Source: an uncultured Bacteroidaceae bacterium
Lineage (GTDB): Bacteria > Bacteroidota > Bacteroidia > Bacteroidales > Bacteroidaceae
DNA length: 64,000 bases
Assembly (NCBI GenBank): GCA_905234555.1
Contig: CAJOHO010000012.1
Location: 12,123-76,122 of the forward strand
Direction: 5' to 3'
Position numbers and translations under genes: made by a program. The notes under the pieces are model-generated. The model did no database searches, was not told where the DNA came from, and worked only from the letters and a program-made list of their open reading frames with translations. Below, piece after piece: positions 3,358 through 58,043 of the stretch (within the stretch, counting starts at the first letter, position 1; each line of letters opens with the position of its first letter).

Positions 3358-3376
3358 TGCATAATTCATAATTAAT
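3341..3376. repeat. word array ATGCATAATTCATA x2 (includes the coaX stop)
   Basis: There is a 14-bp tandem duplication at 3343-3356 and 3357-3370. Confidence 0.85.
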
Positions 3377-3401
3377 TTCGTTGAATAATTCATCAATCAT
3401 A

Positions 3402-4724: not shown

Positions 4725-4770
4725 TGCATAATTGAGAATTCATAATTCATAATGCATAATGCCTAATTCA
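4722..4770. repeat. word array of the ATGCATAAT/TTCATAAT family
   Basis: The sequence is TAATGCATAATTGAGAATTCATAATTCATAATGCATAATGCCTAATTCA. Confidence 0.8.
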
Positions 4771-4771
4771 C

Positions 4772-5473
4772 ATGAATTATAACGGGTCGTCACATTCCAA
4801 CTTTCGTCACAGTCTCTCCCTCTTTCGGAGGGGGATGGGGGTAGGCTTTCTCATCGCTCTCTTTGTCCTCAGTGCCTATTCCTGCCAGAACGACGAAGAG
4901 CACTATGCGCCTGCCCTGGAAGAACGAGACTCATTGCCCATCCTCAAGTCGAGAGGCGTTTCCACACTCATCTCCGACTCTGGCATCATCCGCTATAAGA
5001 TTATCAGCGAGGACTGGTTCATCTACGATAAGAAGAATCCCAACTACTGGGAATTCAACAAAGGACTCTTTATTCAGCGGTTCAACGAGGAGTACCATAC
5101 CGATGCCTACATCACGGCAGATACCGCCTACTATTTCGAGCAGCAACGCATTTGGGAACTCCACGGACGCGTACAAGTGAAGAACCTGAAGGGAGAGACC
5201 TTCCGCACTTCCCTCCTCTACTGGGATCAGAACCAACACCGCATCTACTCACCGGCATACATGCGTATCGACGGAATCGACAACCAGCTACAAGGCTACG
5301 ATTTCTCTTCCAACGAAGAGATGACACAATACCGTATTCACAACTCCAGCGGAGCCACACCTTTCAAGGATGACGATCCCTCCGATCAACCCCGTCCTGA
5401 TCCGCAACTTATGCGAGAGGCAGAGGCTGCAGAAGCTGCTGAAGCCAGCGACTCCACCTCTACTCAGCCATAA
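4772..5473 (+). CDS. lptC: LptC-like LPS export periplasmic lipoprotein
   Basis: There is a lipobox (LSAYSC) after an RR-containing n-region and an OstA/LptC-like core (ISDSGIIRYKI...LHGRVQVKNLKGETF). The alternative start is ATG 4835. The 5' end overlaps a GC-rich repeat element. Confidence 0.7.
   Translation: MNYNGSSHSNFRHSLSLFRRGMGVGFLIALFVLSAYSCQNDEEHYAPALEERDSLPILKSRGVSTLISDSGIIRYKIISEDWFIYDKKNPNYWEFNKGLFIQRFNEEYHTDAYITADTAYYFEQQRIWELHGRVQVKNLKGETFRTSLLYWDQNQHRIYSPAYMRIDGIDNQLQGYDFSSNEEMTQYRIHNSSGATPFKDDDPSDQPRPDPQLMREAEAAEAAEASDSTSTQP
4815..4850 (+). repeat. CCCTC-loop-GAGGG hairpin element
   Basis: The sequence is TCTCCCTCTTTCGGAGGGGGATGGGGGTAGGCTTTC. It lies within the 5' end of the lptC-like ORF. 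Confidence 0.8.
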
Positions 5474-18136: not shown

Positions 18137-18167
18137 TGCATAATTCGTAATGCATAATGCATAATTG
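18128..18167. repeat. word array AATTCGTAATGCAT x2 plus AATGCATAATT (spans the clpC stop and the mltG start)
   Basis: The array was read directly from the sequence. Confidence 0.85.
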
Positions 18168-19205
18168 ATGATGACAAAGAAAAACAAGAAGATACTCATT
18201 ATATCTGTCTGCGCAGTAATAGCTGTGGTGGCCGCTGGTGCCATCACAGCTAAACTTCTTTTCGGCAATATCCTCAAAAACGAACAGGCGGTTTATGTCT
18301 ATATCGACCAAGACGACGACATCGACTCCGTCTGTGCCAAGATCGACGAGGTGGCTCAGCCCTCCACACTCAAGGGTTTTCGAATGCTTGCCAGTTGGAA
18401 AGACTACGACCAGCATATCCGCACAGGACGCTATGAAATCAAGCCGGATATGTCAATCGTTGAGGTTTTCCGGATGTTGCGCAACCACCAGCAGGTACCT
18501 GTCAACCTCGTCGTTCCCAGCGTCCGTACACTCGATCAGCTCTCTGCTCGTCTGTCCGCAAAACTGATGATTGACTCCCTCACCATTGCCCAAAAACTCA
18601 GCGATGAAGCCAGCATCAAGGAATTGGGATTCACCCATGAGACTTTTCCTGCTCTGTTCATTCCCAACACCTACGAAGTGAACTGGGACATCAGCGCCGA
18701 CGAACTGCTCAAACGTATGGCGAGAGAATACAAAGCCTTCTGGACAGAGGAACGGCAGGCGAAAGCCAAAGCCCAGCAACTCAGCCAGACAGAAGTGGCG
18801 ACACTTGCCAGCATCATCGACTCAGAGACTGCTTACACGCCAGAAAAACCAACTGTAGCAGGTCTCTACCTCAACCGTCTGCGCACCAATATGCTACTGC
18901 AAAGCGACCCCACCGTCATCTTCGCCATCGGCGATTTCAGCATGCGACGGGTACTCAACTCCGACCTTCAGGTGGAATCTCCCTACAACACCTACAAATA
19001 CAAGGGACTACCACCAGGACCCATACGTATTCCCAGCGTGTCGGCACTCGACGCCGTGCTCAATCCTGTGGAACACGACTACATCTACATGTGTGCGAAA
19101 GAGGACTTCTCCGGTTCCCATAACTTCGCCACCACCTACAACGAACACTTAGCCAATGCCCGTCGCTACACCAAAGCACTCAACGAACGTGGCATCAAAC
19201 GCTAA
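18165..19205 (+). CDS. mltG: endolytic murein transglycosylase MltG (YceG-like)
   Basis: It has an N-terminal TM anchor and a YceG core (LASIIDSETAYTPEKPTVAGLYLNRL, GLPPGPI). Confidence 0.85.
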   Translation: MMMTKKNKKILIISVCAVIAVVAAGAITAKLLFGNILKNEQAVYVYIDQDDDIDSVCAKIDEVAQPSTLKGFRMLASWKDYDQHIRTGRYEIKPDMSIVEVFRMLRNHQQVPVNLVVPSVRTLDQLSARLSAKLMIDSLTIAQKLSDEASIKELGFTHETFPALFIPNTYEVNWDISADELLKRMAREYKAFWTEERQAKAKAQQLSQTEVATLASIIDSETAYTPEKPTVAGLYLNRLRTNMLLQSDPTVIFAIGDFSMRRVLNSDLQVESPYNTYKYKGLPPGPIRIPSVSALDAVLNPVEHDYIYMCAKEDFSGSHNFATTYNEHLANARRYTKALNERGIKR

Positions 19206-23131: not shown

Positions 23132-23208
23132 GTCGAAATGTCGAAATCCAGAAAAAATCTTAAAAATCGAAAAATAAATCGTAAATCGTCAATCGTCAAA
23201 TCGTAAAT
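23132..23208. repeat. word arrays GTCGAAAT x2 and AAATCGT(C) x4
   Basis: These are the same word families as at 1283-1365. Confidence 0.8.
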
Positions 23209-23215: not shown

Positions 23216-25117
23216 ATGACAACCTACCTAGTTTCAGCCCGAAAGTATCGTCCTGTCACCTTCGACAGCGTCGTGGGTCAGAGTTCCCTGACAACCACGC
23301 TGAAGAACTCCATCACGTCAGGACGTTTGGCACATGCCTACCTCTTCTGCGGACCACGCGGAGTAGGTAAGACCACCTGTGCACGCATCTTTGCGAAAAC
23401 CATCAACTGCCTCAATCCCAAGCCCAACGGAGACGCCTGCGAAGAGTGCGAATCCTGCAAGGCCTTTAACGAGCAGCGGTCCTACAACATCCACGAACTC
23501 GATGCAGCCTCCAACAACGGTGTGGACGACATCCGACAGCTCATCGAGCAAGTCAACATCCCGCCACAGATCGGCAAGTACAAAGTCTTCATCGTCGATG
23601 AGGTTCACATGCTTTCCACAGCAGCCTTCAACGCCTTCCTCAAGACACTCGAGGAACCGCCTGCACACGCCATCTTCATCCTCGCCACCACAGAGAAGCA
23701 CAAGCTGCTGCCCACCATCCTCTCCCGTTGTCAGATCTACGATTTCCAGCGGATGACCGTTCAGAACATCGTGGGACACCTCGAGAACGTGGCGAAGCAG
23801 GAAGGCATCACCTACGAACCGGCAGCCCTCAACGTCATCGCACAGAAGGCAGACGGAGGTATGCGCGACGCCCTCTCTATCTTCGACCAGGTGGCAAGCT
23901 TCTGCCAAGGCAACATCACCTATCAGCAGACCATCGCCGACCTCAACGTCCTCGACTATGAATACTACTTCCGACTGGTCGATGACTTCCTGGGCAACAA
24001 GATTCCAGACGTCATGCTCACCCTCAACGACATCCTCAACAAAGGATTCGACGGAAGCCATTTCGTCGGCGGACTTAACACCCACCTGCGCAACCTCCTC
24101 ATCAGTCGCGACGAAGCCACCGTGAAGTTGCTGGAGACCTCCGACGATGTGCGCCAGCGCTACGTGGAGCAGGCAAAACGCTGTCAGCCCCGTTGGCTCT
24201 ATGCAGCCATCCGCAAGTGCACCGACTGCGACCTCAACTACCGCCAGAGCCAGAACAAACGCCTGTTGGTAGAGCTGACCCTCATCGAGATCGCACAGGC
24301 AGCACAACCCGACGACGGTCTGCCTTCTGGGCGTCGCCCTACGAAGAATCTTAAACCCCTCTTTACGGTGGCTGGCACCACTTCCGCCAGTTCCACCCCT
24401 GTGGCTGCCGCTCCCAATGCCAAAACCACAGCAGCTGGCGCTTCCTCTGCCAGCACTTCCCCTGTGGCTGGAGGTTCTCCCTCCAGCACCAATCCTGCGT
24501 CCGGCGCTCCCAATGCCAATCCCACAGCAGCTGGCGGTTTTCCCGCCAGCTCCGCCAAATCCGCCAGCACCAAAGGCTCCTCCCCTGCCCCATCCATGCG
24601 ACAGGGCGTCAGCAGTTTTTCCATTCTCGCAGCAAAGGAAACATTAGGTCTGAAGCCAAACACCTCAGCGCAGGCAGAAACACAAACCGCACAGGCATTA
24701 GGCATTCCGTCATCCGAACTCACCCCCCTCATCGATGAAGGGCAACCCCATCAGTTGGATGCCACATCCGTCATCGTCGCCTGGCGCACCTTTGCTTCGC
24801 GTCTGCCACAGGAAGAAAACGCCCTGGCATCGAGAATGAACAATATGGAACCGCGACTTCAGGCAGACAGCAAGACCGTAGAGGTGACGGCAGATAACTT
24901 AAAGGTGAAGAAGCTGATTGATCAGAATGCAGAACGCATCATGCAACTCATTCGGCTTACGTTCAACAAACCAGAGCTGCAGTTGCAAGTCAATGTAGAT
25001 GAGAGCAGGACCCAGCGGGTCTATCTCAGCCGAGCCGAGAAGTTCCGCCTCATGTGCGATGAAAACGAAGCATTACGGAAACTCACCGAAGAATTCGCTT
25101 TAGGGTTCGGAAATTAA
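23216..25117 (+). CDS. dnaX: DNA polymerase III subunit gamma/tau
   Basis: It has Walker A GPRGVGKTT, a CxxCxxC zinc module and SRC. A long Ala/Ser/Pro low-complexity linker follows. Confidence 0.9.
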   Translation: MTTYLVSARKYRPVTFDSVVGQSSLTTTLKNSITSGRLAHAYLFCGPRGVGKTTCARIFAKTINCLNPKPNGDACEECESCKAFNEQRSYNIHELDAASNNGVDDIRQLIEQVNIPPQIGKYKVFIVDEVHMLSTAAFNAFLKTLEEPPAHAIFILATTEKHKLLPTILSRCQIYDFQRMTVQNIVGHLENVAKQEGITYEPAALNVIAQKADGGMRDALSIFDQVASFCQGNITYQQTIADLNVLDYEYYFRLVDDFLGNKIPDVMLTLNDILNKGFDGSHFVGGLNTHLRNLLISRDEATVKLLETSDDVRQRYVEQAKRCQPRWLYAAIRKCTDCDLNYRQSQNKRLLVELTLIEIAQAAQPDDGLPSGRRPTKNLKPLFTVAGTTSASSTPVAAAPNAKTTAAGASSASTSPVAGGSPSSTNPASGAPNANPTAAGGFPASSAKSASTKGSSPAPSMRQGVSSFSILAAKETLGLKPNTSAQAETQTAQALGIPSSELTPLIDEGQPHQLDATSVIVAWRTFASRLPQEENALASRMNNMEPRLQADSKTVEVTADNLKVKKLIDQNAERIMQLIRLTFNKPELQLQVNVDESRTQRVYLSRAEKFRLMCDENEALRKLTEEFALGFGN

Positions 25118-25504: not shown

Positions 25505-25527
25505 CATGAATTTTTTTGGCAATAATC

Positions 25528-26301
25528 ATGAAAAAAGAGATAAAAGATTTGAAAGTAGCGGCAAACGAACGGTTTTCGGAGTCGCTGTTCTGTCTGAAGC
25601 TGACTTGCGAAGAGGCTCTGCCGGAAATGCGCCCTGGGCAGTTCGTGGAGGTGCGTGTGGACGGCTCGGAAAAGGTTTTCCTGCGTCGCCCCATCTCCAT
25701 CCATTTTGTGGACCGGCAGAGGAACGAACTCTGGCTGCTGATTCAGATGGTGGGCGAAGGAACTCGTCAGCTCTCGCAACTTCGACCAGGCGACACGGTG
25801 AACGTGCTGATGCCGTTGGGCAACGGTTTCAGTCCTGTCGGCAAGGAAGGTGAACGGGTGCTGCTGGTAGGCGGCGGCGTGGGTATCGCTCCGTTGCTCG
25901 AATACGGAAAGTATCTGAAGGAGAATGGTGCGCAGCCTGTCTTCCTGCTGGGTGCGAAGAGCGAGAATGGCTTTGTGGAGTTGCCGCTCTTTGAGCAATA
26001 TGGTCCTGTATATCTGACGACGGAGGACGGAAGCCGAGGCGAACGGGGATTTGTGACGCAACACAGCATCCTCAGCCGTGAACAGTTCGACCGCATAAGC
26101 GTGTGCGGACCTGGTCCGATGATGAAGGCTGTCGGGCGTTTTGCCCTCAAAGGCAACATACCTTGCGAGGTGTCGTTGGAGAACCGCATGGCTTGCGGAC
26201 TGGGTGCCTGCCTTTGCTGCGTGGAACAAACGGTAAGAGGCAACGTCTGCGTGTGTCAGGAAGGGCCTGTATTTGACATCAATGATCTAAGCCCCCTCTA
26301 A
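25528..26301 (+). CDS. pyrK: dihydroorotate dehydrogenase electron-transfer subunit
   Basis: It has an FAD/NAD-binding fold (RRPISI, GGGVGIAP) and a C-terminal 2Fe-2S Cys cluster (CGLGACLCC...C). The start is ATG 25528. Confidence 0.85.
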   Translation: MKKEIKDLKVAANERFSESLFCLKLTCEEALPEMRPGQFVEVRVDGSEKVFLRRPISIHFVDRQRNELWLLIQMVGEGTRQLSQLRPGDTVNVLMPLGNGFSPVGKEGERVLLVGGGVGIAPLLEYGKYLKENGAQPVFLLGAKSENGFVELPLFEQYGPVYLTTEDGSRGERGFVTQHSILSREQFDRISVCGPGPMMKAVGRFALKGNIPCEVSLENRMACGLGACLCCVEQTVRGNVCVCQEGPVFDINDLSPL

Positions 26302-26366
26302 TCAATGGTCTTTACACCCCCTTCGGTTCCCCCGTTAATCGGGGGACAGAAACCCCCAAGGGGGAG
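26290..26366 (+). repeat. GC-rich element, short form (block A plus block B)
   Basis: Block A at 26290-26325 is identical to 33908-33943 (36/36). Block B at 26338-26366 is identical to 34032-34060 (29/29). Confidence 0.9.
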
Positions 26367-26437: not shown

Positions 26438-27346
26438 ATGGCTAATCTAAGAACAAATATAGCAGGATTGGAGCTGAAGAATCCTGTAATGACGGCCTCG
26501 GGTACGTTCGGTTACGGAACGGAGTATGCCGATCTGATTGACCTGGCTGACCTGGGAGGCATCATCGTGAAGGGTACGACGCTTCATCCGCGTGAGGGAA
26601 ATGCTTACCCTCGCATGGCAGAAACAGCACAAGGAATGCTGAACTGCGTAGGTCTTCAGAACAAGGGTGTGGATTATTTCTGCAAACACATCTACCCTGT
26701 TATCAAGGACTACGACACGAACATCATCGTGAATGTGTCGGGTTCGAGCATCGAGGACTACGTGGAATGTGCACGAAGAATTGATGAGCTGGAACAGATT
26801 CCTGCTATCGAACTGAATATCTCCTGCCCTAACGTGAAGCAAGGCGGAATGGCATTCGGAGTGACGACACAAGGCGCAGCAAGCGTGGTGAAAGCTGTAA
26901 GAGAAGTGTATCATAAGCCTCTGATTGTGAAGCTTTCGCCTAACGTTACTAACATCAGCGATATAGCTCTCGCAGCTGAAGATTCGGGAGCCGACGCTCT
27001 CTCGCTCATCAACACGCTCATGGGAATGGCAATTGATATTGAGCGACGTTGTCCGAAGCTTTCCATCTGTACCGGCGGACTGAGCGGACCAGCTGTCAAG
27101 CCTGTGGCAGTACGTTGTGTGTGGCAGGTGGCAAAGGCTGTGAAGGTGCCGGTTATCGGTCTGGGAGGCATTTCGTCTGTGGAGGACGCCATCGAGTTCT
27201 TCATGGCTGGCGCAAGTGCCATTCAGATAGGAACAGCAAACTTCATCGACCCGACGATTAGCGTGAAAGTGGCGAAAGGTATCGGCAAATGGCTGGATGA
27301 TCACAAATACAAAGACATCAACGAGATCGTGGGTGCCGTGATTTGA
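26438..27346 (+). CDS. pyrD: dihydroorotate dehydrogenase catalytic subunit (class 1B)
   Basis: Conserved stretches are [23 protein letters not shown] and GGISS. Confidence 0.9.
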
Positions 27347-27375: not shown

Positions 27376-29493
27376 ATGTCTAAGAATCAAAAATTTGAAC
27401 AGAGGCGTAAGGAGCAGAAAGCTGCTGCACAGGCTGCTCGTCAGCAAGACAAGACGGCTGTGAAGAAAGCGCCTCAGACACAAGGACCGTCGAGAACGGT
27501 ACAAAAACAGAAGCAGGGAGGCAACCAGCTCACCCTGAACAAATGGGTGCTGTGGTCAGCACCGATGGTTTTCTTCCTCCTCTTCGCAGCTGCCGCATAT
27601 TACGTGCTGGCTGTACAGAACGAGGATTATCTTTTTGCGGTTCAGGAACACAGCATGTGGCTGGACACTCCGCAGTTCTTCAACGACAGTATGGCTTACG
27701 CCGGCGGCTTCGCCCAATGGTTGGGCTGCTATTTCACGCAATTCTTCTACTACCCTGCCCTCGGCACGCTCTTCCTGCTGCTTTGGTGGGCGGTGCTTTA
27801 CGCAGCTACCATCCGTGCGTTCCGTATCCGTGCTGAATGGAGTTTCCTGGCGCTCATCCCTTTGGTGGCGCTGCTCTGTTCAGAGATTGACTTAGGTTAC
27901 TGGCTCTACTACCAGAAGATGCCAGGCTACTGGTTCACGCAGACCATCAGCATCACCTTCATGATGCTGGGTGTATGGGGCTTCACCGCCAGTCCTCGCT
28001 GGGCAAAGTCGGAGTGTCTGACGAAGCACAAATGGTGGACTTGGCTCTGTCGTGCCTGGAAACCTATCTATGTGCTGCTATGGACGGTGTTGGCTTATCC
28101 GCTCATCGGTTGCTGGTCGCTCATCGGTATGTGGATGATGGTGGCTGTGGCTTTGGGCAGAGGCATTTACAAGAAGAAAGTGGGCGAGATGGTGTTTTCG
28201 GTTGCAACAGCAGGAGTGGGCATCGCTGCCTATTTCATCGTTCCCAACTGTTATTACAACTTCTATTCTCGCATGCGCATTGAGGATGCGTGGTGTGTGA
28301 ACTTCCCACTTTTCCAGAACGACAAACTGGTTTCGCCAGGACTGGTGACTCCTTTCTATATTCTGGTGATTGCCCTTGCGGCATTTGCACTGTTCTATGC
28401 AGGCAAAGACCTGATCAAGGGTTTGATGGACATCAAAGAGACGTCGCGAAAGCCGCTGTCGGCTTCTACCTGGCAGATAGCAGGATGGGCTGTTGCCCTG
28501 GTTCTGACTGGCTACCTGATGAGTTCGAAGGTGAGCAGTTCGAACTACGACAACTATAACTTCCATGCAGAGTTGCGCATCCATCGTGCCATCGACGAAT
28601 GCCGCTGGCAGGACGCTCTGGACGAACTGGCTGCAGCACCTGGACCCTCGTCAAGACAGATGGTGATGTCGAAGAACATCGCCTTGATGCACTTGGGAGA
28701 AATCGGCAACAAGATGTTCCACTACGACAACAGCGGTGAACCTCCCTACGCTCCCGACTCTCTGGCTGTCCACACGGCTCAGACCTGTGCCACTCAGGTT
28801 TATTACAACTACGGAAAGATGAACTTTGCCTGCCGCTGGGCCATCGAGGACGGTGTGGAATTCGGCTTCGATATCGACGACATGAAGACGCTGGTTCGTA
28901 CGGCGATGTTCAGCAACGAAGACGACGTAGCCCGCAAGTACATCGACATCCTGATGCACACCACCTTCTACAAGGAATGGGCTGCAGAACGTCTGGCGAT
29001 GCTGAAGAACAAGAAGCTGTGGTACGCAACCGAAGAATATAAAGCCATTGCTCCGCTACGTAGCTTCAACGACATCCTGGACGGCGACCAAGGACTGTGC
29101 GAGATGTACCTCATCAACTATTTCAGCAATATGCACAGCAAGGAACCTAAATTCCAGGAAGAGACGCTGGTGTTTGCGCTGATACAGAAGGACATTCCAA
29201 CGTTCTGGCCACGATTCTACAACTATGCAACCCTCCACGAAAAGGAAACGATGCCGATTCACTACCAGGAAGCCGCGTACCTCTACGGACACCTGGAAAA
29301 CAACGTGAATATCAGCAATATGCCTTTCGACCAGGAGAAGATTGTGAAGCGATACGACCAGTTCCAGGAACGCACCCAAAGCCTGCTACGAAAGGGAATG
29401 AGCAACGAAGCCGTGGGTGAAGCCGTAAAGAGTGAATTTGGCGACACTTTCTGGTGGTTCTATTTCTTCTGCACTGGGGTGCATACGTATTAA
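27376..29493 (+). CDS. large polytopic membrane protein of unknown function (DUF6057-like)
   Basis: It has a basic Gln/Lys-rich N-terminal tail, about 9-10 hydrophobic helices in residues 55-395, and then a soluble domain of about 310 aa. The family name is from memory and needs an HMM check. Confidence 0.6.
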   Translation: MSKNQKFEQRRKEQKAAAQAARQQDKTAVKKAPQTQGPSRTVQKQKQGGNQLTLNKWVLWSAPMVFFLLFAAAAYYVLAVQNEDYLFAVQEHSMWLDTPQFFNDSMAYAGGFAQWLGCYFTQFFYYPALGTLFLLLWWAVLYAATIRAFRIRAEWSFLALIPLVALLCSEIDLGYWLYYQKMPGYWFTQTISITFMMLGVWGFTASPRWAKSECLTKHKWWTWLCRAWKPIYVLLWTVLAYPLIGCWSLIGMWMMVAVALGRGIYKKKVGEMVFSVATAGVGIAAYFIVPNCYYNFYSRMRIEDAWCVNFPLFQNDKLVSPGLVTPFYILVIALAAFALFYAGKDLIKGLMDIKETSRKPLSASTWQIAGWAVALVLTGYLMSSKVSSSNYDNYNFHAELRIHRAIDECRWQDALDELAAAPGPSSRQMVMSKNIALMHLGEIGNKMFHYDNSGEPPYAPDSLAVHTAQTCATQVYYNYGKMNFACRWAIEDGVEFGFDIDDMKTLVRTAMFSNEDDVARKYIDILMHTTFYKEWAAERLAMLKNKKLWYATEEYKAIAPLRSFNDILDGDQGLCEMYLINYFSNMHSKEPKFQEETLVFALIQKDIPTFWPRFYNYATLHEKETMPIHYQEAAYLYGHLENNVNISNMPFDQEKIVKRYDQFQERTQSLLRKGMSNEAVGEAVKSEFGDTFWWFYFFCTGVHTY

Positions 29494-29529
29494 AAAAGTG
29501 AAAAGTGAAAAGTGAAGAGTGAAGAATTC
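29493..29529. repeat. word array (A)AAAGTG/AAGAGTG x5
   Basis: The sequence AAAAAGTGAAAAGTGAAAAGTGAAGAGTGAAGAATTC directly follows the stop codon. Confidence 0.85.
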
Positions 29530-29551
29530 ATTAATCATTAAACGGTAAACT

Positions 29552-29720
29552 GGAACATTTTGGAACAGCGAGAGCAGAGACCAAACTTGTTTGGACTATG
29601 CCGGACCGACGCACGAAGCAAGAGTAGAGGCCAAACTTGTTTGGGCTATGAGGAGGAAGACGTCAGTCAGTCGTGACAAAATCGACTGAATGTAATTCAG
29701 TAAACCGTAAACTGTAAACT
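29552..29720 (+). repeat. 169-bp structured element, copy 1 (ends 16 nt before the ATG of the PD40 lipoprotein gene)
   Basis: It is identical to 31523-31676 over 154 bp and matches 168/169 over the full length. It contains two CCAAAC-TT-GTTTGG hairpins 50 bp apart, plus TCAGTCG-N8-CGACTGA and CTGAAT-GTA-ATTCAG. Confidence 0.95.
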
Positions 29721-29736
29721 GTAAACCAAAAATTCG

Positions 29737-31434
29737 ATGAAACATATATATAATAAGGTAAGGAAACTGAGAAACTGGATGGCAGGTGTGGCATGCTTCT
29801 GCCTGGTTTCCTGCTCCAGCCGTCCGGAAGTGCCGGCTAACTTTAGCAAGGTGGATAAAACACCTGTGATTTTCCCTGAATACACAGAAGTGACCGTTCC
29901 CAGCAACATCGCTCCACTGAACTTCAAGCTGATGGAAGGTGCTGACGAGTGTGTAGCTCGCTTTACGGCAGCCGACGGTTCAGCTTACGTCTATGGCGAA
30001 GACTACAAGGTGCTGATCGACGAGGAAGAATGGAAGAGTATGCTGGCTGCATCGAAGGGTAAAGCCATCAAGGTGGAAGTCTTTGGCAACAAGAACGGCA
30101 AGTGGGAAGCTTATAAACCCTTCAACATTTTCGTGGCAGAAGAGGAAATCGACCCCTACTGCTCCTATCGTGTGATTATGCCTTCCTACGTGGCGTACGA
30201 GATGCTGAGTATCAACGAACGCAACCTCACCAACTTCGAAGAACGCGAGATCTACAACAACATGATTATCTCGCCAGAGGACGGCGGACAATGTATCAAC
30301 TGCCACTCTTACCAGAACTACAAGACCGACAACATGCAGTTCCACATGCGTCAGGGACACGGCGGCACTATGATTGTGAGAAACGGCGAAGCCTATAAGA
30401 TCAACATGAAGAGCGACACGGTGATGAAGGCTGGTGTGATTGGTGCCGGTGTTTATCCTTCGTGGCACCCTACCCTTCCCCTCATTGCCTACTCTGTGAA
30501 CGAGACAGGACAGTCGTTCCACACCAAAGACCCTGCGAAGATTGAGGTGCAGGATGCGCAGAGTGACCTCATCCTCTACGATGTGGAGAAGAACGAGGTA
30601 AGCGTCATCGAGAACGTCTATGAAGAGTTTGAGTGCTTCCCTTGGTGGGCACCCGACGGCAAGTCGCTCTATTACAGCTCTGCCCATTTCGTCTATCCGG
30701 AGAAGAACGACTCGCTGCAGAAGAAGTTCGCCAACGACGAGAAAGGCTTCAAGAACTCACAGATTATCGACCGCTACGAGGAATTCAAATACGATATCTA
30801 TCGCAAGTCGTTCGACGAGAAGACCCGCACCTTCGGTCCTCCTGAACTGGTCTATGCAGCCTCGAAAGCAGACAGCATCGGATTCAGCGCCACCTTCCCA
30901 CGCATCAGTCCTGACGGACGTTATCTGCTGTTCGGGCAGGGACGTTTCGGCTGCTTCCATGTGTGGCACCCAGATGCCGACCTATATCTCACAGACCTCC
31001 AGACGATGGAAACGCGCAAACTGGAGAACGTGAACAGCGACTGTGCTGAGAGCTACCATTCGTGGTCGAGCAACTCACGCTGGATCATCTTCATCAGCCG
31101 CAGGGACGACAACAACTACAGCCGACTCTATATGGCTTACTTCGACAAGGACGGCAAAGCCCACAAAGCCTTTGAACTGCCACAGGAAGACCCCGACTTC
31201 TACGACTACTACCTCCGTTCCTACAATGTGCCTGAGTTCATGAAGGAACCTGTTCGCATCAGCGGTCAGGAGTTTGCCGCAGCCGCCAAGAGAGACCCGA
31301 TAGATGTGAAGTTCGGAGGTTACAGCACACCTTCTGCAGCACAAAGGAAAGTGGATGGTCAGACTTCCGCCTCAGCCCGCAATGACTCCACAAAGACCGA
31401 CGGGACCACAGGGGCGACAGCTCAGAAGAAGTGA
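29737..31434 (+). CDS. lipoprotein with a TolB/PD40-like beta-propeller and a CxxCH motif
   Basis: It has a lipobox (CLVSCSS), a CINCH motif (CxxCH) and PD40-like repeats (WAPDGKSLYY, ISPDGRYLLF, WSSNSRWIIF). Confidence 0.65.
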   Translation: MKHIYNKVRKLRNWMAGVACFCLVSCSSRPEVPANFSKVDKTPVIFPEYTEVTVPSNIAPLNFKLMEGADECVARFTAADGSAYVYGEDYKVLIDEEEWKSMLAASKGKAIKVEVFGNKNGKWEAYKPFNIFVAEEEIDPYCSYRVIMPSYVAYEMLSINERNLTNFEEREIYNNMIISPEDGGQCINCHSYQNYKTDNMQFHMRQGHGGTMIVRNGEAYKINMKSDTVMKAGVIGAGVYPSWHPTLPLIAYSVNETGQSFHTKDPAKIEVQDAQSDLILYDVEKNEVSVIENVYEEFECFPWWAPDGKSLYYSSAHFVYPEKNDSLQKKFANDEKGFKNSQIIDRYEEFKYDIYRKSFDEKTRTFGPPELVYAASKADSIGFSATFPRISPDGRYLLFGQGRFGCFHVWHPDADLYLTDLQTMETRKLENVNSDCAESYHSWSSNSRWIIFISRRDDNNYSRLYMAYFDKDGKAHKAFELPQEDPDFYDYYLRSYNVPEFMKEPVRISGQEFAAAAKRDPIDVKFGGYSTPSAAQRKVDGQTSASARNDSTKTDGTTGATAQKK

Positions 31435-31436
31435 AG

Positions 31437-31497
31437 AGGCGCCCCAATTTGTCGAAATGTCGATATTCCGAAATATCGAAATGTCGACAAGGCGCCT
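31437..31497. repeat. 61-bp imperfect palindrome built from TCGAAATGTCGA words
   Basis: The outer arms are AGGCGCC/GGCGCCT and the inner arms are TCGATATT/AATATCGA. It lies 3 nt after the stop of the PD40 gene. Confidence 0.8.
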
Positions 31498-31522
31498 TCG
31501 AAATGTCGAAAAAAATTAAACA

Positions 31523-31691
31523 GGAACATTTTGGAACAGCGAGAGCAGAGACCAAACTTGTTTGGACTATGCCGGACCGACGCACGAAGCAAGAGTAGAG
31601 GCCAAACTTGTTTGGGCTATGAGGAGGAAGACGTCAGTCAGTCGTGACAAAATCGACTGAATGTAATTCAGTAAACGGTAAACTGTAAACT
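31523..31691 (+). repeat. 169-bp structured element, copy 2 (ends 9 nt before the ATG of the S9 peptidase gene)
   Basis: This is a direct repeat of 29552-29720, offset by 1971 bp. Confidence 0.95.
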
Positions 31692-31700: not shown

Positions 31701-33905
31701 ATGAGAATCCTACAAACTATCTCCGCAGCAATCCTTTCCGTCAGTTCGCTCTGCGCACAAGGAACCGTCGATGACTACAAACGTGCGTGGTCCATTCGTG
31801 GAAAGTACTCTAACAAAGTGGCAAACGGCAGCGTGCGTGTTCTGCCTGTTGATCACGCCAATCCTGCCAAGCTCATCTACTCCACCTTCAACGGCGACAG
31901 CACGGTGTGGTACAGCGTGGACATCGCTACAGGAGCCAAGGAGCCAACCACCAATCCCGAACCTCCACGTCGCGAATGGCGAGGCGGAGGGAACCGTCGT
32001 CAGCGCCACTGGATGGAAGTGCCTGACGAGAAGGACGGCTATAGTGTGTCGCCAGACAAGAAGATTGCTATCGTCACCCGCAACGACAACTTGTGGAAGG
32101 GTCTGACGATGGATGCTTTCCGCACACCTGCGAACGAAGGAACGCCCGACGAGATTCCACCTTTCTATAACTTCGAAAAAACGCTGGAACCGCTGACCAA
32201 CAACGGCGATAGCACCTATTACTATTCTTCTTACGGCTCTTTCTCGCCCAACGGAGAGTATTATGCCACCGTCCGCATCAAGCCTGCACCCAAACACTAT
32301 GTGTATTACGTGGAATCCTCTCCCAAGGACCAGGTGCAGCCAGTTCTCCATAAGCAGGAATACGCCAAACCAGGCGATTCGCTGAACTATCGTGTGCCCG
32401 TCATCGTGGAGGTGGCCACAGGTCGTGTGATCGAACCCAGCACAGAGCTTTTCCAAAGCCAGTACGACGTGACGATGCCCAGTTGGGACGAGAACGGACA
32501 AACCCTTACCTTTGAGTTCAACGAACGCGGACACAAGACCTTCCGTGTGTTGGAGATGAACCTGAAAGGCGAAGTTCGAACCCTTATTGAGGAAAAGAAT
32601 GACAAATACGTGGCTTACTCCCGCAACCTGCGTCGTGACCTCGATGCCAACCACATCCTTTGGAAGAGCGACAGGGACGGACACGCTCACCTCTATCTCT
32701 ACGACCGCAAGAAAGGAAAACTCTCTCAGATCACCAAAGGCGACTACTGGGTACGTGGCGTTCAGCACAGCGAGATAGACGAGAAGACAGGCAAAGGCTA
32801 TGTCATCTTCTCCGCCAACGGCATGAACTGCAAGAATATGGGTAAGGTGGCTTCAAGCTTTGATGGAACCATCACAGAGGAAGACCCTTACAACATTCAC
32901 TATTATCGTATTGACCTGAACGGAAAGAATCTGGTGTGCCTCACACCTGAGAAAGGCACCCACTCCGCCACGTTCAGCAAGAACCACGACGCACTCATCG
33001 ACACCTATTCATCCGTCAACCAAACACCCGTCACAGTACTGCGTTCCGCCCAAGACGGACACATCATCTCCACGCTGGAGACAGCCGACATCAGCCGTCT
33101 GGAGAAAGAAGGCTGGAAGGCTCCCGAAGTGTTCGTGGCACCAGGTCGCGACGGCAAGACCGATATGTGGGGACTCATTTACCGTCCCTCCAACTTCGAC
33201 CCCTCGAAGAAATATCCTGTCATCGAATATATCTACTCAGGTCCAGGCGACCAGTATGTGCCCAAATCCTTCACACCCTGGCTTTACAATCTTGCCGACT
33301 TGTCCGAACTGGGCTTTATCGTTGTGCAGGTTGACGGCATGAGCACATCGTTCCGCAATCTCGACTTCGAACAGGTTTGCTACAAGAACCTGCACGACAG
33401 CGGATTCCCCGACCGCATCGCCTGGATCAAGGCTGCCGCAGAAAAATATCCTTATATGGATGCCGACAACGTGGGTATTTATGGTTGTTCAGCAGGTGGA
33501 CAGGAGGCACTCGGTGCTGTCCTCTTCCACGGCGATTTCTACAAAGCTGCCTACGCTGCCTGCGGATGTCACGACAACCGCATGGACAAAATTTGGTGGA
33601 ACGAACAGTGGATGTCCTACCCCATCGACAGCAGTTATGTAGCTGCATCGAACGTAGAGAACGCCAAGAACCTCGAACGTCCGCTGATGCTCGTTGTAGG
33701 TGAGCTGGACGACAACGTTGATCCTGCTTCCACCATGCAGGTGGCAGACGCTCTTATCAAGGCAGGCAAAGACTTCGAACTCGTCGTGCTTCCTGGTGTT
33801 CATCACTCTATGGGTGAAACCTACGGCGAACACAAACGCTTCGACTTCTTCGTACGCAACCTTCTCGGCGTCAATCCTCCCAAATGGAACGAACTGAAGA
33901 AATAA
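31701..33905 (+). CDS. S9-family serine peptidase (dipeptidyl-peptidase IV-like)
   Basis: It has a signal peptide, an N-terminal propeller region, the nucleophile motif GCSAGGQ, and downstream Asp (GELDDNV) and His (GVHHS). Confidence 0.8.
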   Translation: MRILQTISAAILSVSSLCAQGTVDDYKRAWSIRGKYSNKVANGSVRVLPVDHANPAKLIYSTFNGDSTVWYSVDIATGAKEPTTNPEPPRREWRGGGNRRQRHWMEVPDEKDGYSVSPDKKIAIVTRNDNLWKGLTMDAFRTPANEGTPDEIPPFYNFEKTLEPLTNNGDSTYYYSSYGSFSPNGEYYATVRIKPAPKHYVYYVESSPKDQVQPVLHKQEYAKPGDSLNYRVPVIVEVATGRVIEPSTELFQSQYDVTMPSWDENGQTLTFEFNERGHKTFRVLEMNLKGEVRTLIEEKNDKYVAYSRNLRRDLDANHILWKSDRDGHAHLYLYDRKKGKLSQITKGDYWVRGVQHSEIDEKTGKGYVIFSANGMNCKNMGKVASSFDGTITEEDPYNIHYYRIDLNGKNLVCLTPEKGTHSATFSKNHDALIDTYSSVNQTPVTVLRSAQDGHIISTLETADISRLEKEGWKAPEVFVAPGRDGKTDMWGLIYRPSNFDPSKKYPVIEYIYSGPGDQYVPKSFTPWLYNLADLSELGFIVVQVDGMSTSFRNLDFEQVCYKNLHDSGFPDRIAWIKAAAEKYPYMDADNVGIYGCSAGGQEALGAVLFHGDFYKAAYAACGCHDNRMDKIWWNEQWMSYPIDSSYVAASNVENAKNLERPLMLVVGELDDNVDPASTMQVADALIKAGKDFELVVLPGVHHSMGETYGEHKRFDFFVRNLLGVNPPKWNELKK

Positions 33906-33907
33906 AA

Positions 33908-34060
33908 AGCCCCCTCTAATCAATGGTCTTTACACCCCCTTCGCGCCCACCGTTGCAAGTGGGGGACTTGCAACCCTTTGTGGGGTCGGAGCCACATTCA
34001 GTGCCTCCTCTAAAGACCGTCGTCCCCAGTCATCGGGGGACAGAAACCCCCAAGGGGGAG
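33908..34060 (+). repeat. GC-rich element, long form (block A, 88-nt insert, block B)
   Basis: It has the same terminal blocks as 26290-26366. The internal part carries the hairpin TTGCAAGT-GGGGG-ACTTGCAA. Confidence 0.9.
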
Positions 34061-34094
34061 AATTATGAATTATGCATTATGAATTACGAATTAA
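34059..34094. repeat. word array GAATTATG/CATTATG/GAATTACG
   Basis: It is in the reverse orientation relative to the ATGCATAATTC family. Confidence 0.75.
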
Positions 34095-34097: not shown

Positions 34098-35465
34098 ATG
34101 GCCAATCCTAAAGAACTTGGAACCCAGCCTGTTGGCAGACTGCTGATGCGATATGCTGTGCCTGCTGTCATTGCGATGACGGCTTCATCGCTCTACAATA
34201 TCGTCGATCGCATCTTTATCGGACACATTGGCTCCGAGGCCGAAGGTTCGTTGGCACTTGGCGGTCTCGCCGTCACCTTTCCCATCATGAACCTCAGCGC
34301 AGCCTTTGGTGCTATGATTGGAGTTGGCGGCAGCACGCTCATATCCGTGAAACTCGGACAGAAAGACCACGACACAGCTCAGCGTGTACTTGGCAACGTC
34401 GTCACCCTCAACGTCATTTTGGGTGTTCTGCTTGCAGTTATTGGCATAGCCTTCATTGATCCCCTGCTCTATTTCTTCGGAGCCAGCGAAAACACGGTGA
34501 GTTATGCTCGCGAATACATGTTCGTCATCCTGCTGGGTAATGTCGTTACCCATCTCTACTTGGGTCTGAACGCCGTACTCCGTTCCACAGGACATCCCAA
34601 CACGGCGATGATTGCGACTTTCGCCACCGTCATCGTCAATTCCATCCTCGATCCGCTCTTCATTTTCACGTTCGACATGGGGATTCGGGGAGCCGCTATC
34701 GCCACCATTCTCGCTCAGGTCATTGCCTTGGCATTCGTGTGGTTTGTGCTGAGCAACAAAAAAGAGGTAATCTACCTGAAGCAAGGAATCTACGGACTGC
34801 GTCGCCGCATCGTCAAGAACGTCCTGACCATCGGTCTGTCACCTTTCTGCATGCAGCTCTGTGCCTGCCTCGTGGTCATTCTCATCAATAAAGGACTTCA
34901 GAAACACGGAGGCGACCTTGCCATTGCTGCCTACGGCATCATCAACGGCATCACCTTCCTCTTCATCATGGTGGTGCTGGGCATCTGTCAGGGAATGCAG
35001 CCCATCGCCGGCTACAACTACGGTGCACAGCGTTTTGACCGCGTCACACAGGTGCTGCGTTACAGCATCATCTTTGCTACCATCGTGATGACCTCCTCCT
35101 TCGTCATCTGCGAATTCATTCCCCACCTGCCTGTTTCTCTGTTTACCGACGATCCTGTTCTCACCGACCTCTCCGTCGATGGCATGCGTCTCATCGTCAG
35201 CATGAGTCCGTTGGTGGGTTTCCAGATTGTCACAGGCAACTTCTTCCAGAGTATCGGAATGGCAAAGAAAAGCATCTTCCTCAGCATCAGCAGACAGCTG
35301 ATATTTTTAGTGCCCTTCCTCCTCATCTTCCCTGAAATGTGGGGAACCAACGGTGTGTGGATCAGCATCGCAGCAGCCGACGGCGTCTCCATCATCACCG
35401 CAGCCCTCATGCTCTGGCATTTCTTCCGCACAGGCGGCATCACCAAAACACAGATAGATTTATGA
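34098..35465 (+). CDS. MATE family efflux transporter
   Basis: It has 12 TM helices and an N-terminus LLMRYAVPAVIAMTASSLYNIVDRIFIGH typical of NorM/MATE transporters. Confidence 0.85.
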   Translation: MANPKELGTQPVGRLLMRYAVPAVIAMTASSLYNIVDRIFIGHIGSEAEGSLALGGLAVTFPIMNLSAAFGAMIGVGGSTLISVKLGQKDHDTAQRVLGNVVTLNVILGVLLAVIGIAFIDPLLYFFGASENTVSYAREYMFVILLGNVVTHLYLGLNAVLRSTGHPNTAMIATFATVIVNSILDPLFIFTFDMGIRGAAIATILAQVIALAFVWFVLSNKKEVIYLKQGIYGLRRRIVKNVLTIGLSPFCMQLCACLVVILINKGLQKHGGDLAIAAYGIINGITFLFIMVVLGICQGMQPIAGYNYGAQRFDRVTQVLRYSIIFATIVMTSSFVICEFIPHLPVSLFTDDPVLTDLSVDGMRLIVSMSPLVGFQIVTGNFFQSIGMAKKSIFLSISRQLIFLVPFLLIFPEMWGTNGVWISIAAADGVSIITAALMLWHFFRTGGITKTQIDL

Positions 35466-54351: not shown

Positions 54352-54430
54352 ATGAAATATGAAGAATGAAGTGTGAAAAATGAAGAGTGAAGCGTGAAAA
54401 GTGAAGCGAGAAGGGTGAAGAGAAGAAAGG
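54352..54430. repeat. about 11 tandem 7-8-mers of the RTGAAGN family
   Basis: The sequence is ATGAAATATGAAGAATGAAGTGTGAAAAATGAAGAGTGAAGCGTGAAAAGTGAAGCGAGAAGGGTGAAGAGAAGAAAGG. Confidence 0.85.
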
Positions 54431-54466
54431 AATAAATGTGTTTACGCATATATCATTCAATTTTAA

Positions 54467-57850: not shown

Positions 57851-58043
57851 CGGAAAAAAATCGGACCGACCGCATGATTCCAACAAAAATAATTCAAGAA
57901 ACATGTTTTTACATAGTTTTTGGAGATGAATTGCAGTTGACTGCAAGAATATTTGGTTCCTGATGCACTCTCTTGATAAGCAAACACTTACAGCGTGCAG
58001 AGCGAACACAAATTCTCTCGAAAGTTAAGTCAAAATAAAATTT

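What the first reader, a model, noticed from the sequence alone, without database searches (positions are those of the whole stretch)
29552..31691. A 169-bp structured element duplicated almost perfectly upstream of two consecutive genes, bracketing one whole gene
Segments 29552-29720 and 31523-31691 are identical over 154 bp and match 168/169 overall, while the surrounding sequence is unrelated. Copy 1 ends 16 nt before the ATG of the PD40/CxxCH lipoprotein gene, and copy 2 ends 9 nt before the ATG of the S9 peptidase gene.

Each copy contains a 25-bp sub-repeat twice, 50 bp apart (AGAGrCCAAACTTGTTTGGrCTATG). Its core is the hairpin or inverted repeat CCAAAC-TT-GTTTGG. Two further perfect inverted repeats follow: TCAGTCG-N8-CGACTGA and CTGAAT-GTA-ATTCAG.

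I find no TAnnTTTG box inside the element, so it is probably transcribed as an intercistronic or 5'-UTR RNA of a three-gene operon. It could also be a duplicated operator carrying four identical palindromic sites. The two direct repeats 1971 bp apart would also allow RecA-mediated deletion or amplification of exactly the PD40 gene. I do not recognise the sequence as any described riboswitch, leader or sRNA class.
Basis: partly seen in the sequence, partly recalled or inferred. Interest (0 to 1): 0.72.

Follow-up and report, generated by a model that had tools for sequence, protein, structure and literature searches.

The report
Nested hairpin repeat duplicated around gene
The duplicated 175-base segment is real, but it is not a gene-specific switch: each copy is two nested units of a small hairpin repeat found at many unrelated places in gut and rumen Bacteroidales, gained recently by one strain.

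Summary
Segments 29546-29720 and 31517-31691 match at 173/175 bases, and the inner 148 nt are identical. Independent assemblies of the same strain confirm both junctions.

Each copy is a composite. One roughly 83-nt hairpin unit is interrupted by a second 65-nt unit. Both units belong to a family I recovered at 47 distinct metagenomic loci plus one viral contig.

The family has these properties:
- It has a conserved core, GAGCAGAG-CCAAAC-TT-GTTTGG-RCTATGC, set inside a stem that differs from locus to locus.
- Stem pairs covary, while three purine-purine oppositions stay conserved.
- Flanking genes are unrelated (conjugation genes, SusC, capsule, phage), and orientation is biased but not fixed.
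- It matches no Rfam family, and I found no neighbouring transposase.

Sister strains (96-99% identical) lack the element at both sites and have a 33-nt PD40-S9 spacer. So the element is a recent gain in a tight operon. Copy 2 carries flank sequence native to site 1, so it was copied from copy 1.

Neither spacer has a Bacteroidetes promoter box. The interrupted composite folds no better than shuffled sequence. Both copies share a 10-nt indel state that differs between otherwise identical assemblies, which suggests gene conversion.

Verdict: a REP/MITE-like selfish repeat of an undescribed family. It is probably co-transcribed, and a specific regulatory role is unlikely.

The parts
29546..29720 (+). 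Repeat copy 1 (175 nt): the 148-nt element plus shared flanking TAAACNG heptamers, in the DUF6057->PD40 spacer
31517..31691 (+). Repeat copy 2 (175 nt, 173/175 identical to copy 1), in the PD40->S9 spacer
29553..29603 (+). Unit 1, 5' half: GAAC, outer-stem strand ATTTTG, core GAACAGCGAGAGCAGAGA, hairpin CCAAACTTGTTTGG, then ACTATGCCG. Same in copy 2 at 31524-31574.
   Evidence: Comparison with 46 uninterrupted units; core profile hits at 29566-29606 and 31537-31577
29604..29668 (+). Unit 2 (65 nt), inserted inside unit 1. Outer stem GACCGACG/CGTCAGTC and hairpin 29631-29644. In the window it lacks 10 nt (CCTTGCAAGA) after GGGCTATG, which removes the 3' strand that pairs with GCAAG. Same in copy 2 at 31575-31639.
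   Evidence: L226/L227/L228 carry the intact form; fold z = +0.3
29669..29700 (+). Unit 1, 3' half: AGTCGTGA, outer-stem strand CAAAAT, then tail hairpin CTGAAT-GTA-ATTCAG (29686-29700). Same in copy 2 at 31640-31671.
   Evidence: (rejoined unit 1 folds into the family structure, -20.3 kcal/mol, z = -2.3)
29581..29594 (+). Terminal hairpin CCAAAC-TT-GTTTGG. The other three are at 29631-29644, 31552-31565 and 31602-31615.
29701..29727 (+). TAAACNG heptamer array, native to site 1 (present in sister strains at the empty site). Part of it (TAAACSGTAAACTGTAAACT) travelled with the element to site 2 (31672-31691).
31437..31497 (+). Strong hairpin built of TCGAAATG octamers directly after the PD40 stop codon. 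It is a separate insertion that is also absent from sister strains. It is part of the rebuilt PD40->S9 spacer but not of the repeat.
   Evidence: -32.5 kcal/mol, z = -6.8
27376..29493 (+). DUF6057 gene, upstream of copy 1
29737..31434 (+). PD40-repeat protein gene, bracketed by the two copies
31701..33905 (+). S9/DPP-IV family peptidase gene, downstream of copy 2

Best explanation
Each copy is a 148-nt composite of two units of a small, non-coding, hairpin-forming repeat family (REP/MITE-like). The family is scattered through the genomes, conjugative elements and some phages of gut and rumen Bacteroidales.

A unit is about 65-90 nt and has these parts:
- a 5' GAAC;
- a 6-10-bp outer stem whose sequence differs from locus to locus;
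- a conserved core, (A)AGCGAGAGCAGAG(R)-CCAAAC-TT-GTTTGG-(R)CTATGCCGAGC, that folds into an irregular hairpin with conserved G.A oppositions;
- often a short tail hairpin.

Proposed history in the window's lineage:
1. One unit sat in the TAAACNG heptamer array upstream of the PD40 gene.
2. A second unit landed inside it, after CTATGCCG.
3. The composite, together with about 20 nt of site-1 flank, was copied into the PD40->S9 spacer, probably at the TAAAC present there.
4. The two copies have since been kept alike by gene conversion.

The ancestral state is a tightly packed pyrK-pyrD-DUF6057-PD40-S9 operon without the element.

The element carries no Bacteroidetes promoter. It is most likely transcribed passively as intercistronic RNA on the strand that folds. 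Its effect on expression is probably small or incidental. Any effect would be hairpin-type influence on mRNA decay or on translation of the next gene.

Shown: family membership, nesting, absence from sister strains, direction of copying, covariation of the hairpin, lack of a promoter box. Inferred: the means of spread (enzyme unknown), gene conversion, co-transcription, near-neutrality.
For: Family:
- The 20-nt pattern CCAAACTTGTTTGGRCTATG found 101 metagenome stretches and 1 viral contig. These collapse to 47 distinct loci.
- All share a 5' core that was not part of the search pattern.

Structure:
- 96.7% of cells in the main helix form standard pairs, and 9 of its 14 pairs show changes on both sides. 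The whole-structure covariation score is 0.149, against 0.075 for shuffles (0/500 reach it) and at most 0.044 for slid controls.
- Diverged units keep the hairpin through CCAAGC/GCTTGG, CTAAGC/GCTTAG, GGA/TCC and ACA/TGT.
- The outer stem pairs with its own partner better than with other loci's partners: -9.66 versus -7.12 +/- 0.33 kcal/mol.
- G.T outnumbers A.C 29 to 6, and G.A is conserved at three positions.

Generic distribution:
- Flanks include relaxase/TraG, TraM/DUF4138 (TraN position), FecR/SusC-like receptor, capsule epimerase, helicase and phage genes.
- Orientation counts are 13 (+E+), 3 (-E-), 4 and 3.

Nesting:
- Removing 29604-29668 restores the sequence CTATGCCGAGTCGTGAC seen in uninterrupted units, and restores the family fold.

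Recent gain:
- L001/L229, L230 and L231 (96-99% identical, collinear) have a 33-nt PD40->S9 spacer and no unit anywhere.
- L002/L003 (83% amino-acid identity) have 39- and 20-nt spacers.

Direction of copying:
- The heptamer flank TAAACCGTAAAC.GTAAACTGTA is present at the empty site 1 of sister strains but not at their site 2.

No promoter box. No Rfam family.

Concerted indel: both copies lack CCTTGCAAGA in the window, and both carry it in L226/L227/L228, which otherwise show 0 mismatches over 16 kb.
Against: - No mobilising enzyme, terminal inverted repeats or clean target-site duplication were found, so 'mobile' rests on presence/absence and dispersal only.
- Copy number in this genome looks low: four units in 64 kb, all inside the two copies, and none in about 16 kb of each sister strain. 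This is unlike classical REPs.
- Strong covariation, conserved non-canonical pairs and a 13:3 bias towards the sense strand would also fit a selected RNA function.
- The family sample was ascertained with an exact 20-nt pattern, so variation in the 3' half of the hairpin is under-sampled and many sequences are related.
- Gene calls around the metagenome loci are my own crude ORF calls.
- The shared 10-nt indel could be an assembly or polishing effect.
Confidence: 0.7

Rival explanations
1. The units are functional RNA modules. As part of the polycistronic transcript, the hairpin (with its tandem G.A pairs and tail hairpin) would bind a protein or an RNase. It would then set the stability, processing or downstream translation of intercistronic mRNA, as REP stabilisers or Correia elements do in other bacteria. 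On this reading the window strain gained such a module in front of two genes and thereby changed their relative expression.
For: - The hairpin covaries while non-canonical positions stay conserved.
- The folding strand is the sense strand in the window and in 13 of 16 co-directional contexts.
- There is no promoter box, so the element is probably transcribed.
- The tail hairpin lies next to, or over, start codons in several loci, for example L222 and the L215 cluster.
Against: - In the window unit 1 is split by unit 2, and unit 2 has lost one strand of a helix. The composite folds no better than shuffles.
- Flanking genes, distances and partly the orientation vary.
- Sister strains do without it.
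- There are no expression data.
Confidence: 0.2
2. The two copies are two independent insertions of an already formed composite element by a site-preferring transposition-like process. Both sites read TAAAC(N)G | element | TAAAC(S)G. On this reading copy 2 is not a recombinational copy of site 1.
For: - Both insertion points are flanked by TAAACNG-like heptamers.
- The ancestral site 2 contains TAAAC.
- The inner 148 nt are identical.
Against: - The flanking heptamers are not exact duplications: TAAACTG/TAAACCG at site 1 and TAAACAG/TAAACGG at site 2.
- A further 13 nt of site-1-type heptamer array (GTAAACTGTAAACT) follows the element at site 2 and is absent from the empty site 2.
- The composite was found nowhere else in the DNA in hand.
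Confidence: 0.15
3. The four CCAAAC-TT-GTTTGG palindromes are operators for a dimeric DNA-binding regulator that co-regulates PD40 and S9.
For: Four identical 14-bp near-palindromes lie 50 bp apart within each copy.
Against: - The same palindrome, with the same asymmetric flanks, occurs next to unrelated genes, in conjugative elements and in phage.
- Neither spacer has a promoter box to act on.
- Strand-asymmetric G.T over A.C and conserved G.A oppositions point to single-strand folding.
- Sister strains lack the sites.
Confidence: 0.03
4. The duplication is an assembly artefact: a repeat collapsed or mis-joined in a metagenome-assembled contig.
For: Contigs of other assemblies break inside the repeat, which shows that assemblers struggle with it.
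Against: Three independent contigs from two samples read from unique flank into the repeat at both sites and agree base for base with the window outside the 10-nt indel.
Confidence: 0.02

Closest known systems
REP / BIME / REPIN elements of Proteobacteria, mobilised by RAYT (IS200/IS605-like Y1 transposases)
   Same: - Short extragenic imperfect palindromes that fold as single strands.
- They occur singly, in tandem and nested.
- They lie between genes of operons and are co-transcribed.
- They are polymorphic between strains.
- They insert without an obvious target duplication.
- Their known effects are on mRNA stability and translation of neighbours.
   Different: - There is no conserved GTAG (or CGTC) tag next to the stem (classes described in PMC3733652).
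- No RAYT or IS200-like gene was found next to any of 47 loci.
- Copy number is apparently low in this genome.
- The unit is longer (65-90 nt), with a variable outer stem around a conserved core and conserved tandem G.A pairs.
MITEs that are co-transcribed and structured, such as Correia elements (Neisseria), ERIC/IRU (enterobacteria), and RUP and BOX (pneumococcus)
   Same: - Size range of 60-180 nt and intergenic location inside transcription units.
- Hairpin-forming, with strain-to-strain presence/absence.
- Modular or composite copies, like BOX.
- Also found on phages and mobile elements (MITEs shared by Bacteroidota and their phages are reported in PMC11602168).
   Different: - There are no terminal inverted repeats matching an insertion sequence and no clean target-site duplication.
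- Stem pairs covary between copies instead of the whole sequence being conserved.
- No parent insertion sequence is identified.
Putative mobile promoters: identical upstream regions in front of unrelated genes (concept recalled from Matus-Garcia et al., Nucleic Acids Res 2012, my own knowledge, not read here)
   Same: A near-identical segment sits immediately upstream of two non-homologous genes.
   Different: There is no TAnnTTTG (-7) box within one mismatch in either spacer. The segment is made of dispersed hairpin units, not a promoter.
FopS/GibS multicopy sRNA family of Bacteroides (PMC11697453)
   Same: A multicopy non-coding family in Bacteroidales that is also seen in a phage. Some units lie between anti-sigma and SusC genes (L172, L184).
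   Different: - FopS genes have their own promoters, a single-stranded seed and a Rho-independent terminator, and the authors report depositing the consensus structure in Rfam.
- Our units have no promoter box and a different architecture, and give no Rfam hit.

Membership tests
REP/REPIN-RAYT | 20-40-nt imperfect palindrome able to fold as a single strand | tested here: met
   The core hairpin is supported by covariation. The unit is longer than a classical REP.
REP/REPIN-RAYT | Conserved unpaired GTAG (or CGTC) tetranucleotide at the foot of the stem | tested here: not met
   The consensus 5' of the stem is GAGCAGAG(R). GTAG appears only in the window's unit 2 and is not conserved. There is no CGTC tag (class definitions from PMC3733652).
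REP/REPIN-RAYT | Associated RAYT / Y1 transposase gene flanked by the repeats | tested here: not met
   No family occurs more than twice among 85 flanking ORFs, and no transposase family is among the 25 families listed. ORFs between inverted unit pairs are lipase, fimbrillin, GNAT and the like. Whole genomes were not searched.
REP/REPIN-RAYT | High copy number per genome (tens to hundreds) | tested here: inconclusive
   There are four units in the 64-kb window and none in sister-strain contigs.
IS-derived MITE | Terminal inverted repeats matching an insertion sequence | tested here: not met
   The ends GAACATTTTGG... and ...GAATGTAATTCAG are not inverted repeats of each other.
IS-derived MITE | Target-site duplication at filled sites compared with empty sites | tested here: inconclusive
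   The filled sites are flanked by TAAACTG/TAAACCG and TAAACAG/TAAACGG. These are imperfect and lie inside a heptamer array.
IS-derived MITE | Presence/absence polymorphism at orthologous sites | tested here: met
   The window, L226, L227 and L228 are filled. L001/L229, L230 and L231 are empty.
Gene-specific cis-regulatory RNA (riboswitch or leader) | Constant position and orientation upstream of functionally related genes | tested here: not met
   There are 72 Pfam families among 85 flanking ORFs. Distances run from about 0 to several hundred nt, and some contexts are reversed or convergent.
Gene-specific cis-regulatory RNA (riboswitch or leader) | Conserved secondary structure with covariation | tested here: met
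   for the unit. Not met for the window's interrupted composite.
Any Rfam 15 family (including Bacteroidales motifs) | Covariance-model match | tested here: not met
   There is no hit on the element at E <= 10 in the window. There is none on intact units in 15 + 5 loci.
Transcription-factor operator | Symmetric double-stranded half-sites placed relative to a promoter of a regulon | tested here: not met
   There is no promoter box. The conserved context is asymmetric and the mismatch pattern is strand-specific. No regulon is apparent.
Integron attC / gene cassette | The bracketed gene is itself mobile (a cassette) and there is an integrase nearby | tested here: not met
   PD40 sits at the same place in relatives without the element. 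No integrase was seen among the neighbours.

The most novel reading that the evidence does not exclude
The roughly 50-nt conserved core is a hairpin with tandem G.A pairs, a bulged A, a further G.A and a CCAAAC/GUUUGG tip, embedded in a freely covarying outer stem. It could be a previously unrecognised, widespread functional nucleic-acid module of Bacteroidales. One possibility is a protein- or RNase-binding RNA element that tunes intercistronic mRNA fate. The other is the single-stranded DNA recognition hairpin of an unidentified HUH-type enzyme, that is, a REP-like system native to Bacteroidota and carried by conjugative elements and phages. In either case the window shows it caught in the act of spreading within an operon.
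Probability: 0.25. Interest if true: 0.7.

Novelty: new variant of a known kind. Interest (0 to 1): 0.45.

Why it matters
For this locus, it turns an apparent 'new riboswitch-like leader' into a recent insertion and duplication of a selfish repeat in a housekeeping operon. It also provides a natural filled-versus-empty strain pair for testing what such hairpins do to operon expression.

More broadly, it exposes a conserved, covarying hairpin family in human-gut and rumen Bacteroidales. The family is also found on conjugative transposons and phage. It is not in Rfam, and I could not find it in the searchable literature. Small repeats of this kind break metagenome assemblies: contigs of other samples end inside it. 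They can also drive gene conversion, deletion or amplification between neighbouring copies. If the core is recognised by a protein, it would be a new handle on RNA or single-stranded-DNA biology in a phylum that lacks Hfq and ProQ (own knowledge).

Tried and rejected
1. The single genome-contig scan was wasted. I loosened the pattern to CCAAACNNGTTTGG x2. The one Bacteroidaceae locus (L095) is unrelated. As a result I have no genome-wide copy count.
2. An exact look-up of the PD40 protein found nothing on record.
3. BLAST of the 175-mer against phage and plasmid collections gave one short hit in an unannotated 2.3-kb Caudoviricetes record and no plasmid hit.
4. Literature searches by sequence string, MITE/Bacteroides, REP/RAYT/Bacteroidetes and Prevotella intergenic repeats found no description of this family. 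The Segatella copri RNA-landscape paper is not held.
5. FopS/GibS were considered and rejected on architecture and lack of an Rfam match.
6. Integron attC, group II intron domain V, CRISPR repeats and TnpB/IscB guide RNAs were considered from memory. I dropped them because context features are missing (no integrase, Cas or TnpB neighbours) and no Rfam model matched.
7. A sigma-70-type promoter/terminator scan gave nothing above shuffles, and that promoter model is not appropriate for Bacteroidetes anyway.
8. RNAalifold on the MAFFT alignment could not capture the outer stem because its length varies. I tested it instead with a partner-permutation energy test.
Full report
**1. Observation**

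Segments 29546-29720 and 31517-31691 form a 175-nt direct repeat with a start-to-start spacing of 1971 nt. They differ at two positions, 29551 (T/A) and 29706 (C/G).

- The 25-nt sub-repeat occurs twice per copy. The hairpin CCAAAC-TT-GTTTGG occurs only at these four places in 64 kb.
- The second inverted repeat has a 9-nt spacer, not 8.
- The genes are as described. All lie on the + strand: a pyrK-like gene (25516-26301), pyrD (26438-27346), DUF6057 (27376-29493), a PD40-repeat protein (29737-31434), an S9/DPP-IV peptidase (31701-33905) and MatE (34098-35465).
- A core-sequence profile finds no further unit in the window.

**2. The element is a recent gain**

The closest relatives of the PD40 protein led to contigs of the same species, collinear with the window and 96-99% identical in DNA: L001/L229, L230 and L231, the last from a bovine metagenome.

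- In all three the PD40->S9 spacer is 33 nt.
- The DUF6057->PD40 spacer holds a different, GC-rich repeat instead of this element. No unit of the family is present.
- A more distant relative (83% protein identity, L002/L003) has spacers of 39 and 20 nt.

The ancestral state is therefore a tightly packed operon. The element, and also the strong hairpin at 31437-31497, are additions in the window's lineage.

That lineage was sampled independently. L226 (site 1) and L227 (site 2) come from ERZ27234819, and L228 (site 2) from ERZ1667847. They match the window with 0 mismatches over about 16 kb, and they read from unique flank into the repeat. The contigs end inside the repeat, as expected for a repeat longer than the assembler's k-mer. 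This rules out an assembly artefact.

**3. What the element is made of**

An exact-pattern scan with CCAAACTTGTTTGGRCTATG returned one viral contig and 101 metagenome stretches from human gut, rumen and other sources. These collapse to 47 distinct loci.

All share much more than the pattern. A conserved 5' core, (A)AGCGAGAGCAGAG(R), was not part of the query. There is a conserved 3' continuation, GCCGAGC, a preceding GAAC, and, outside the core, a 6-10-bp stem that differs in sequence from locus to locus but stays complementary within each locus. Units occur singly, in tandem, truncated and nested.

Read against this family, the window's 148 nt resolve into two units.
- Unit 1 comprises 29553-29603 and 29669-29700, with outer stem ATTTTG/CAAAAT and tail hairpin CTGAAT-GTA-ATTCAG.
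- Unit 2 (29604-29668, outer stem GACCGACG/CGTCAGTC) splits unit 1 directly after CTATGCCG.

Deleting unit 2 restores CTATGCCGAGTCGTGAC, the sequence of uninterrupted relatives. It also restores the family fold (-20.3 kcal/mol, z = -2.3).

Unit 2 in the window lacks 10 nt that are present in its relatives. It therefore lacks one strand of a helix (z = +0.3). The whole composite folds no better than shuffled sequence, with z = -0.5 on the + strand and -1.0 on the - strand.

**4. Is the unit a real structure?**

Yes, at the family level. I used a 67-sequence alignment that includes diverged copies found with a profile.
- 96.7% of cells in the main helix form standard pairs.
- 9 of its 14 pairs show changes on both sides.
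- The whole-structure covariation score is 0.149. Partner shuffles give 0.075 (0 of 500 reach the observed value), and structures slid by 1-3 columns give at most 0.044.
- Compensated variants include CCAAGC/GCTTGG, CTAAGC/GCTTAG, GGA/TCC and ACA/TGT.
- The outer stem pairs with its own partner at -9.66 kcal/mol on average, against -7.12 +/- 0.33 when partners are permuted between loci.

Three oppositions are conserved as purine-purine: G.A in 47/67, A.G in 49/67 and G.A in 61/67. They become Watson-Crick pairs only in minority subfamilies. G.T pairs outnumber A.C 29 to 6. So the strand that folds is 5'-GAGCAGAG...CTATGC-3', which is the mRNA-sense strand in the window.

Caveats:
- The sample was ascertained with an exact pattern.
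- Many sequences are related.
- Covariation cannot separate RNA from single-stranded DNA.

**5. Is it tied to particular genes?**

No. The genes flanking the 47 loci are unrelated. They include a relaxase and TraG-like coupling protein, TraM and DUF4138 (TraN position), a FecR anti-sigma factor and SusC-like receptor, a capsule epimerase, a helicase, phage genes, an MFS transporter, a lipase and a fimbrillin. In total there are 72 Pfam families among 85 ORFs, none seen more than twice.

With my own rough ORF calls, the contexts split as follows: 13 co-directional in the sense orientation, 3 co-directional antisense, 4 convergent and 3 divergent. Distances to neighbours range from about 0 to several hundred nt. 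This is a bias, not a rule.

No transposase appears next to units or between inverted unit pairs. No Rfam family matches the window's copies or intact units elsewhere. FopS/GibS differ in architecture. I found no description in the searchable literature.

**6. How copy 2 arose**

The repeat includes more than the element. It also includes TAAAC(T/A)G on the left and TAAAC(C/G)GTAAACTGTAAACT on the right.

Sister strains have the heptamer array TAAACCGTAAACGGTAAACTGTATAC at the empty site 1. At the empty site 2 they have only TTAAACC. So the flank at site 2 came from site 1, and copy 2 is a copy of copy 1 together with its flank. The join was probably at TAAAC microhomology (inference).

The composite junctions occur nowhere else in the DNA in hand. 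Independent transposition of a pre-formed composite remains possible but fits the flanks less well.

**7. Do the copies interact?**

In the window both copies lack CCTTGCAAGA after GGGCTATG. In L226 (site 1) and in L227 and L228 (site 2) both copies carry it. Each of those readings lies within one k-mer of unique flank, and everything else is identical.

The simplest biological reading is a deletion in one copy that spread to the other by gene conversion. That would mean the two 175-nt direct repeats do recombine. An assembly or polishing effect cannot be excluded.

No allele with PD40 deleted or amplified was seen, but only six assemblies were available. Repeats of this length are adequate substrates for RecA-dependent deletion or duplication. 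That is established general knowledge and was not tested here.

**8. Expression**

Neither spacer contains the Bacteroidetes -7 box TAnnTTTG, even with one mismatch. The nearest exact box is at 25497, upstream of the pyrK-like gene. The element is therefore most likely read through as part of the operon transcript (inference).

The added hairpin at 31437-31497 is very stable (-32.5 kcal/mol, z = -6.8). It has no U-tract after it. Whether it terminates or merely stabilises the PD40 message is unknown.

**9. Comparison and verdict**

The element works like REP/BIME elements and like structured, co-transcribed MITEs such as Correia, ERIC and BOX. It fails the defining tests of both groups:
- no GTAG or CGTC tag;
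- no RAYT gene;
- no terminal inverted repeats;
- no clean target duplication.

It is not a riboswitch or leader, not an operator, and not an integron cassette.

I class it as a new variant of a known kind: a small selfish hairpin repeat of an apparently undescribed Bacteroidales family. Here it is present as a nested dimer that was duplicated around one gene of an operon.

The locus-level finding is of modest interest. The family-level structure, with its conserved tandem G.A core, covarying stems and presence on conjugative elements and phage, is the part worth following up.

Noticed in passing
window 33907-34069 and 26288-26366; L001 5204-5369; L230 4252-4418: A second, GC-rich repeat of about 130-166 nt (AAGCCCCCTCTAATCAATGG...CCCCCAAGGGGGAG) is polymorphic in the same operon. 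The window has it in the S9->MatE spacer, plus a shortened copy in the pyrK->pyrD spacer. Sister strains have short empty sites there (AAGCCCCCTCTAAC-TCCCCCAAGGGGGAG) but carry it in the DUF6057->PD40 spacer. It looks like an active MITE-like element that inserts into a CCCCC/GGGGG hairpin.
   Followed up: partly
window 31437-31509; related array at 1275-1329: A very stable hairpin (-32.5 kcal/mol, z = -6.8) built from TCGAAATG octamer repeats sits directly after the PD40 stop codon. It is absent from sister strains. A similar octamer array lies at 1275-1329.
   Followed up: partly
window 29493-29525, 29701-29727, 1330-1363, 23163-23208, 3326-3385, 4721-4780, 18119-18178, 54354-54432, 57727-57770, 58176-58219: Almost every intergenic spacer carries short tandem heptamer or octamer arrays (GTGAAAA/GTGAAGA, GTAAACN, CGTAAAT, CATAATG). 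The same GTGAAGA arrays flank a unit in the unrelated metagenome locus L137. Their origin and role are unknown.
   Followed up: no
window 58032-58145: Five tandem copies of a 22-nt unit contain the palindrome CCAAGTACTTGG. This is iteron- or operator-like.
   Followed up: no
L008, L009, L018, L028, L042 and others (Saprospiraceae MAGs); L029, L032 (FCB group, Hydrogenedentota); L004, L013 (Kribbella): Unrelated repeat families in other phyla share the CCAAACNNGTTTGG palindrome. In Saprospiraceae they form long tandem arrays of a 25-nt unit, GGCCAAACTTGTTTGGCCCAGTAACC. In FCB-group genomes they are the tips of long palindromes. They were found by accident with an over-loose pattern.
   Followed up: partly
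window 29686-29700 and 31657-31671; L215 cluster; L222: The tail hairpin CTGAAT-GTA-ATTCAG contains a minimal start-stop ORF (ATG TAA). In L222 the equivalent hairpin (CGAAT-GAA-ATTC) contains what looks like the real start codon of a lipoprotein gene.
   Followed up: no
many loci, for example L126, L142, L146, L156, L193, L198, L149, L218: Units are often followed by a mini-hairpin with a G-N-A or GNRA-type loop (GCGAAGC, GACGAAGTC, AACGAAGTT, GGCGTAGCC, GACGAGAGTC). From my own knowledge, GNA triloops are known as unusually stable in DNA. This hints that the single-stranded DNA form may matter.
   Followed up: no
L137 626-671 (+), L156 17-70 (-): Sub-threshold matches to Rfam Acido-Lenti-1 (RF01687; 23.8 and 29.4 bits against a gathering score of 37) fall on CCCAGGGCGCTGCCCTGGG / GCCCTTTCAGGGCG repeats. 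This is another repeat family common in these contigs.
   Followed up: no
window 24368-24550: An 87-nt direct repeat (75% identity, 96-nt spacing) lies in a stretch that appears to be coding (composition rich in Ala/Gly/Pro codons; not verified).
   Followed up: no
L171 about 5138-5175 (-) and 7403-7449 (+); L135 about 1313-1424 (-) and 7293-7337 (+); L147: In several loci two or more units lie 2-6 kb apart and bracket one or a few ordinary genes, as in the window. This suggests local hopping or copying is a recurrent habit of the family.
   Followed up: partly
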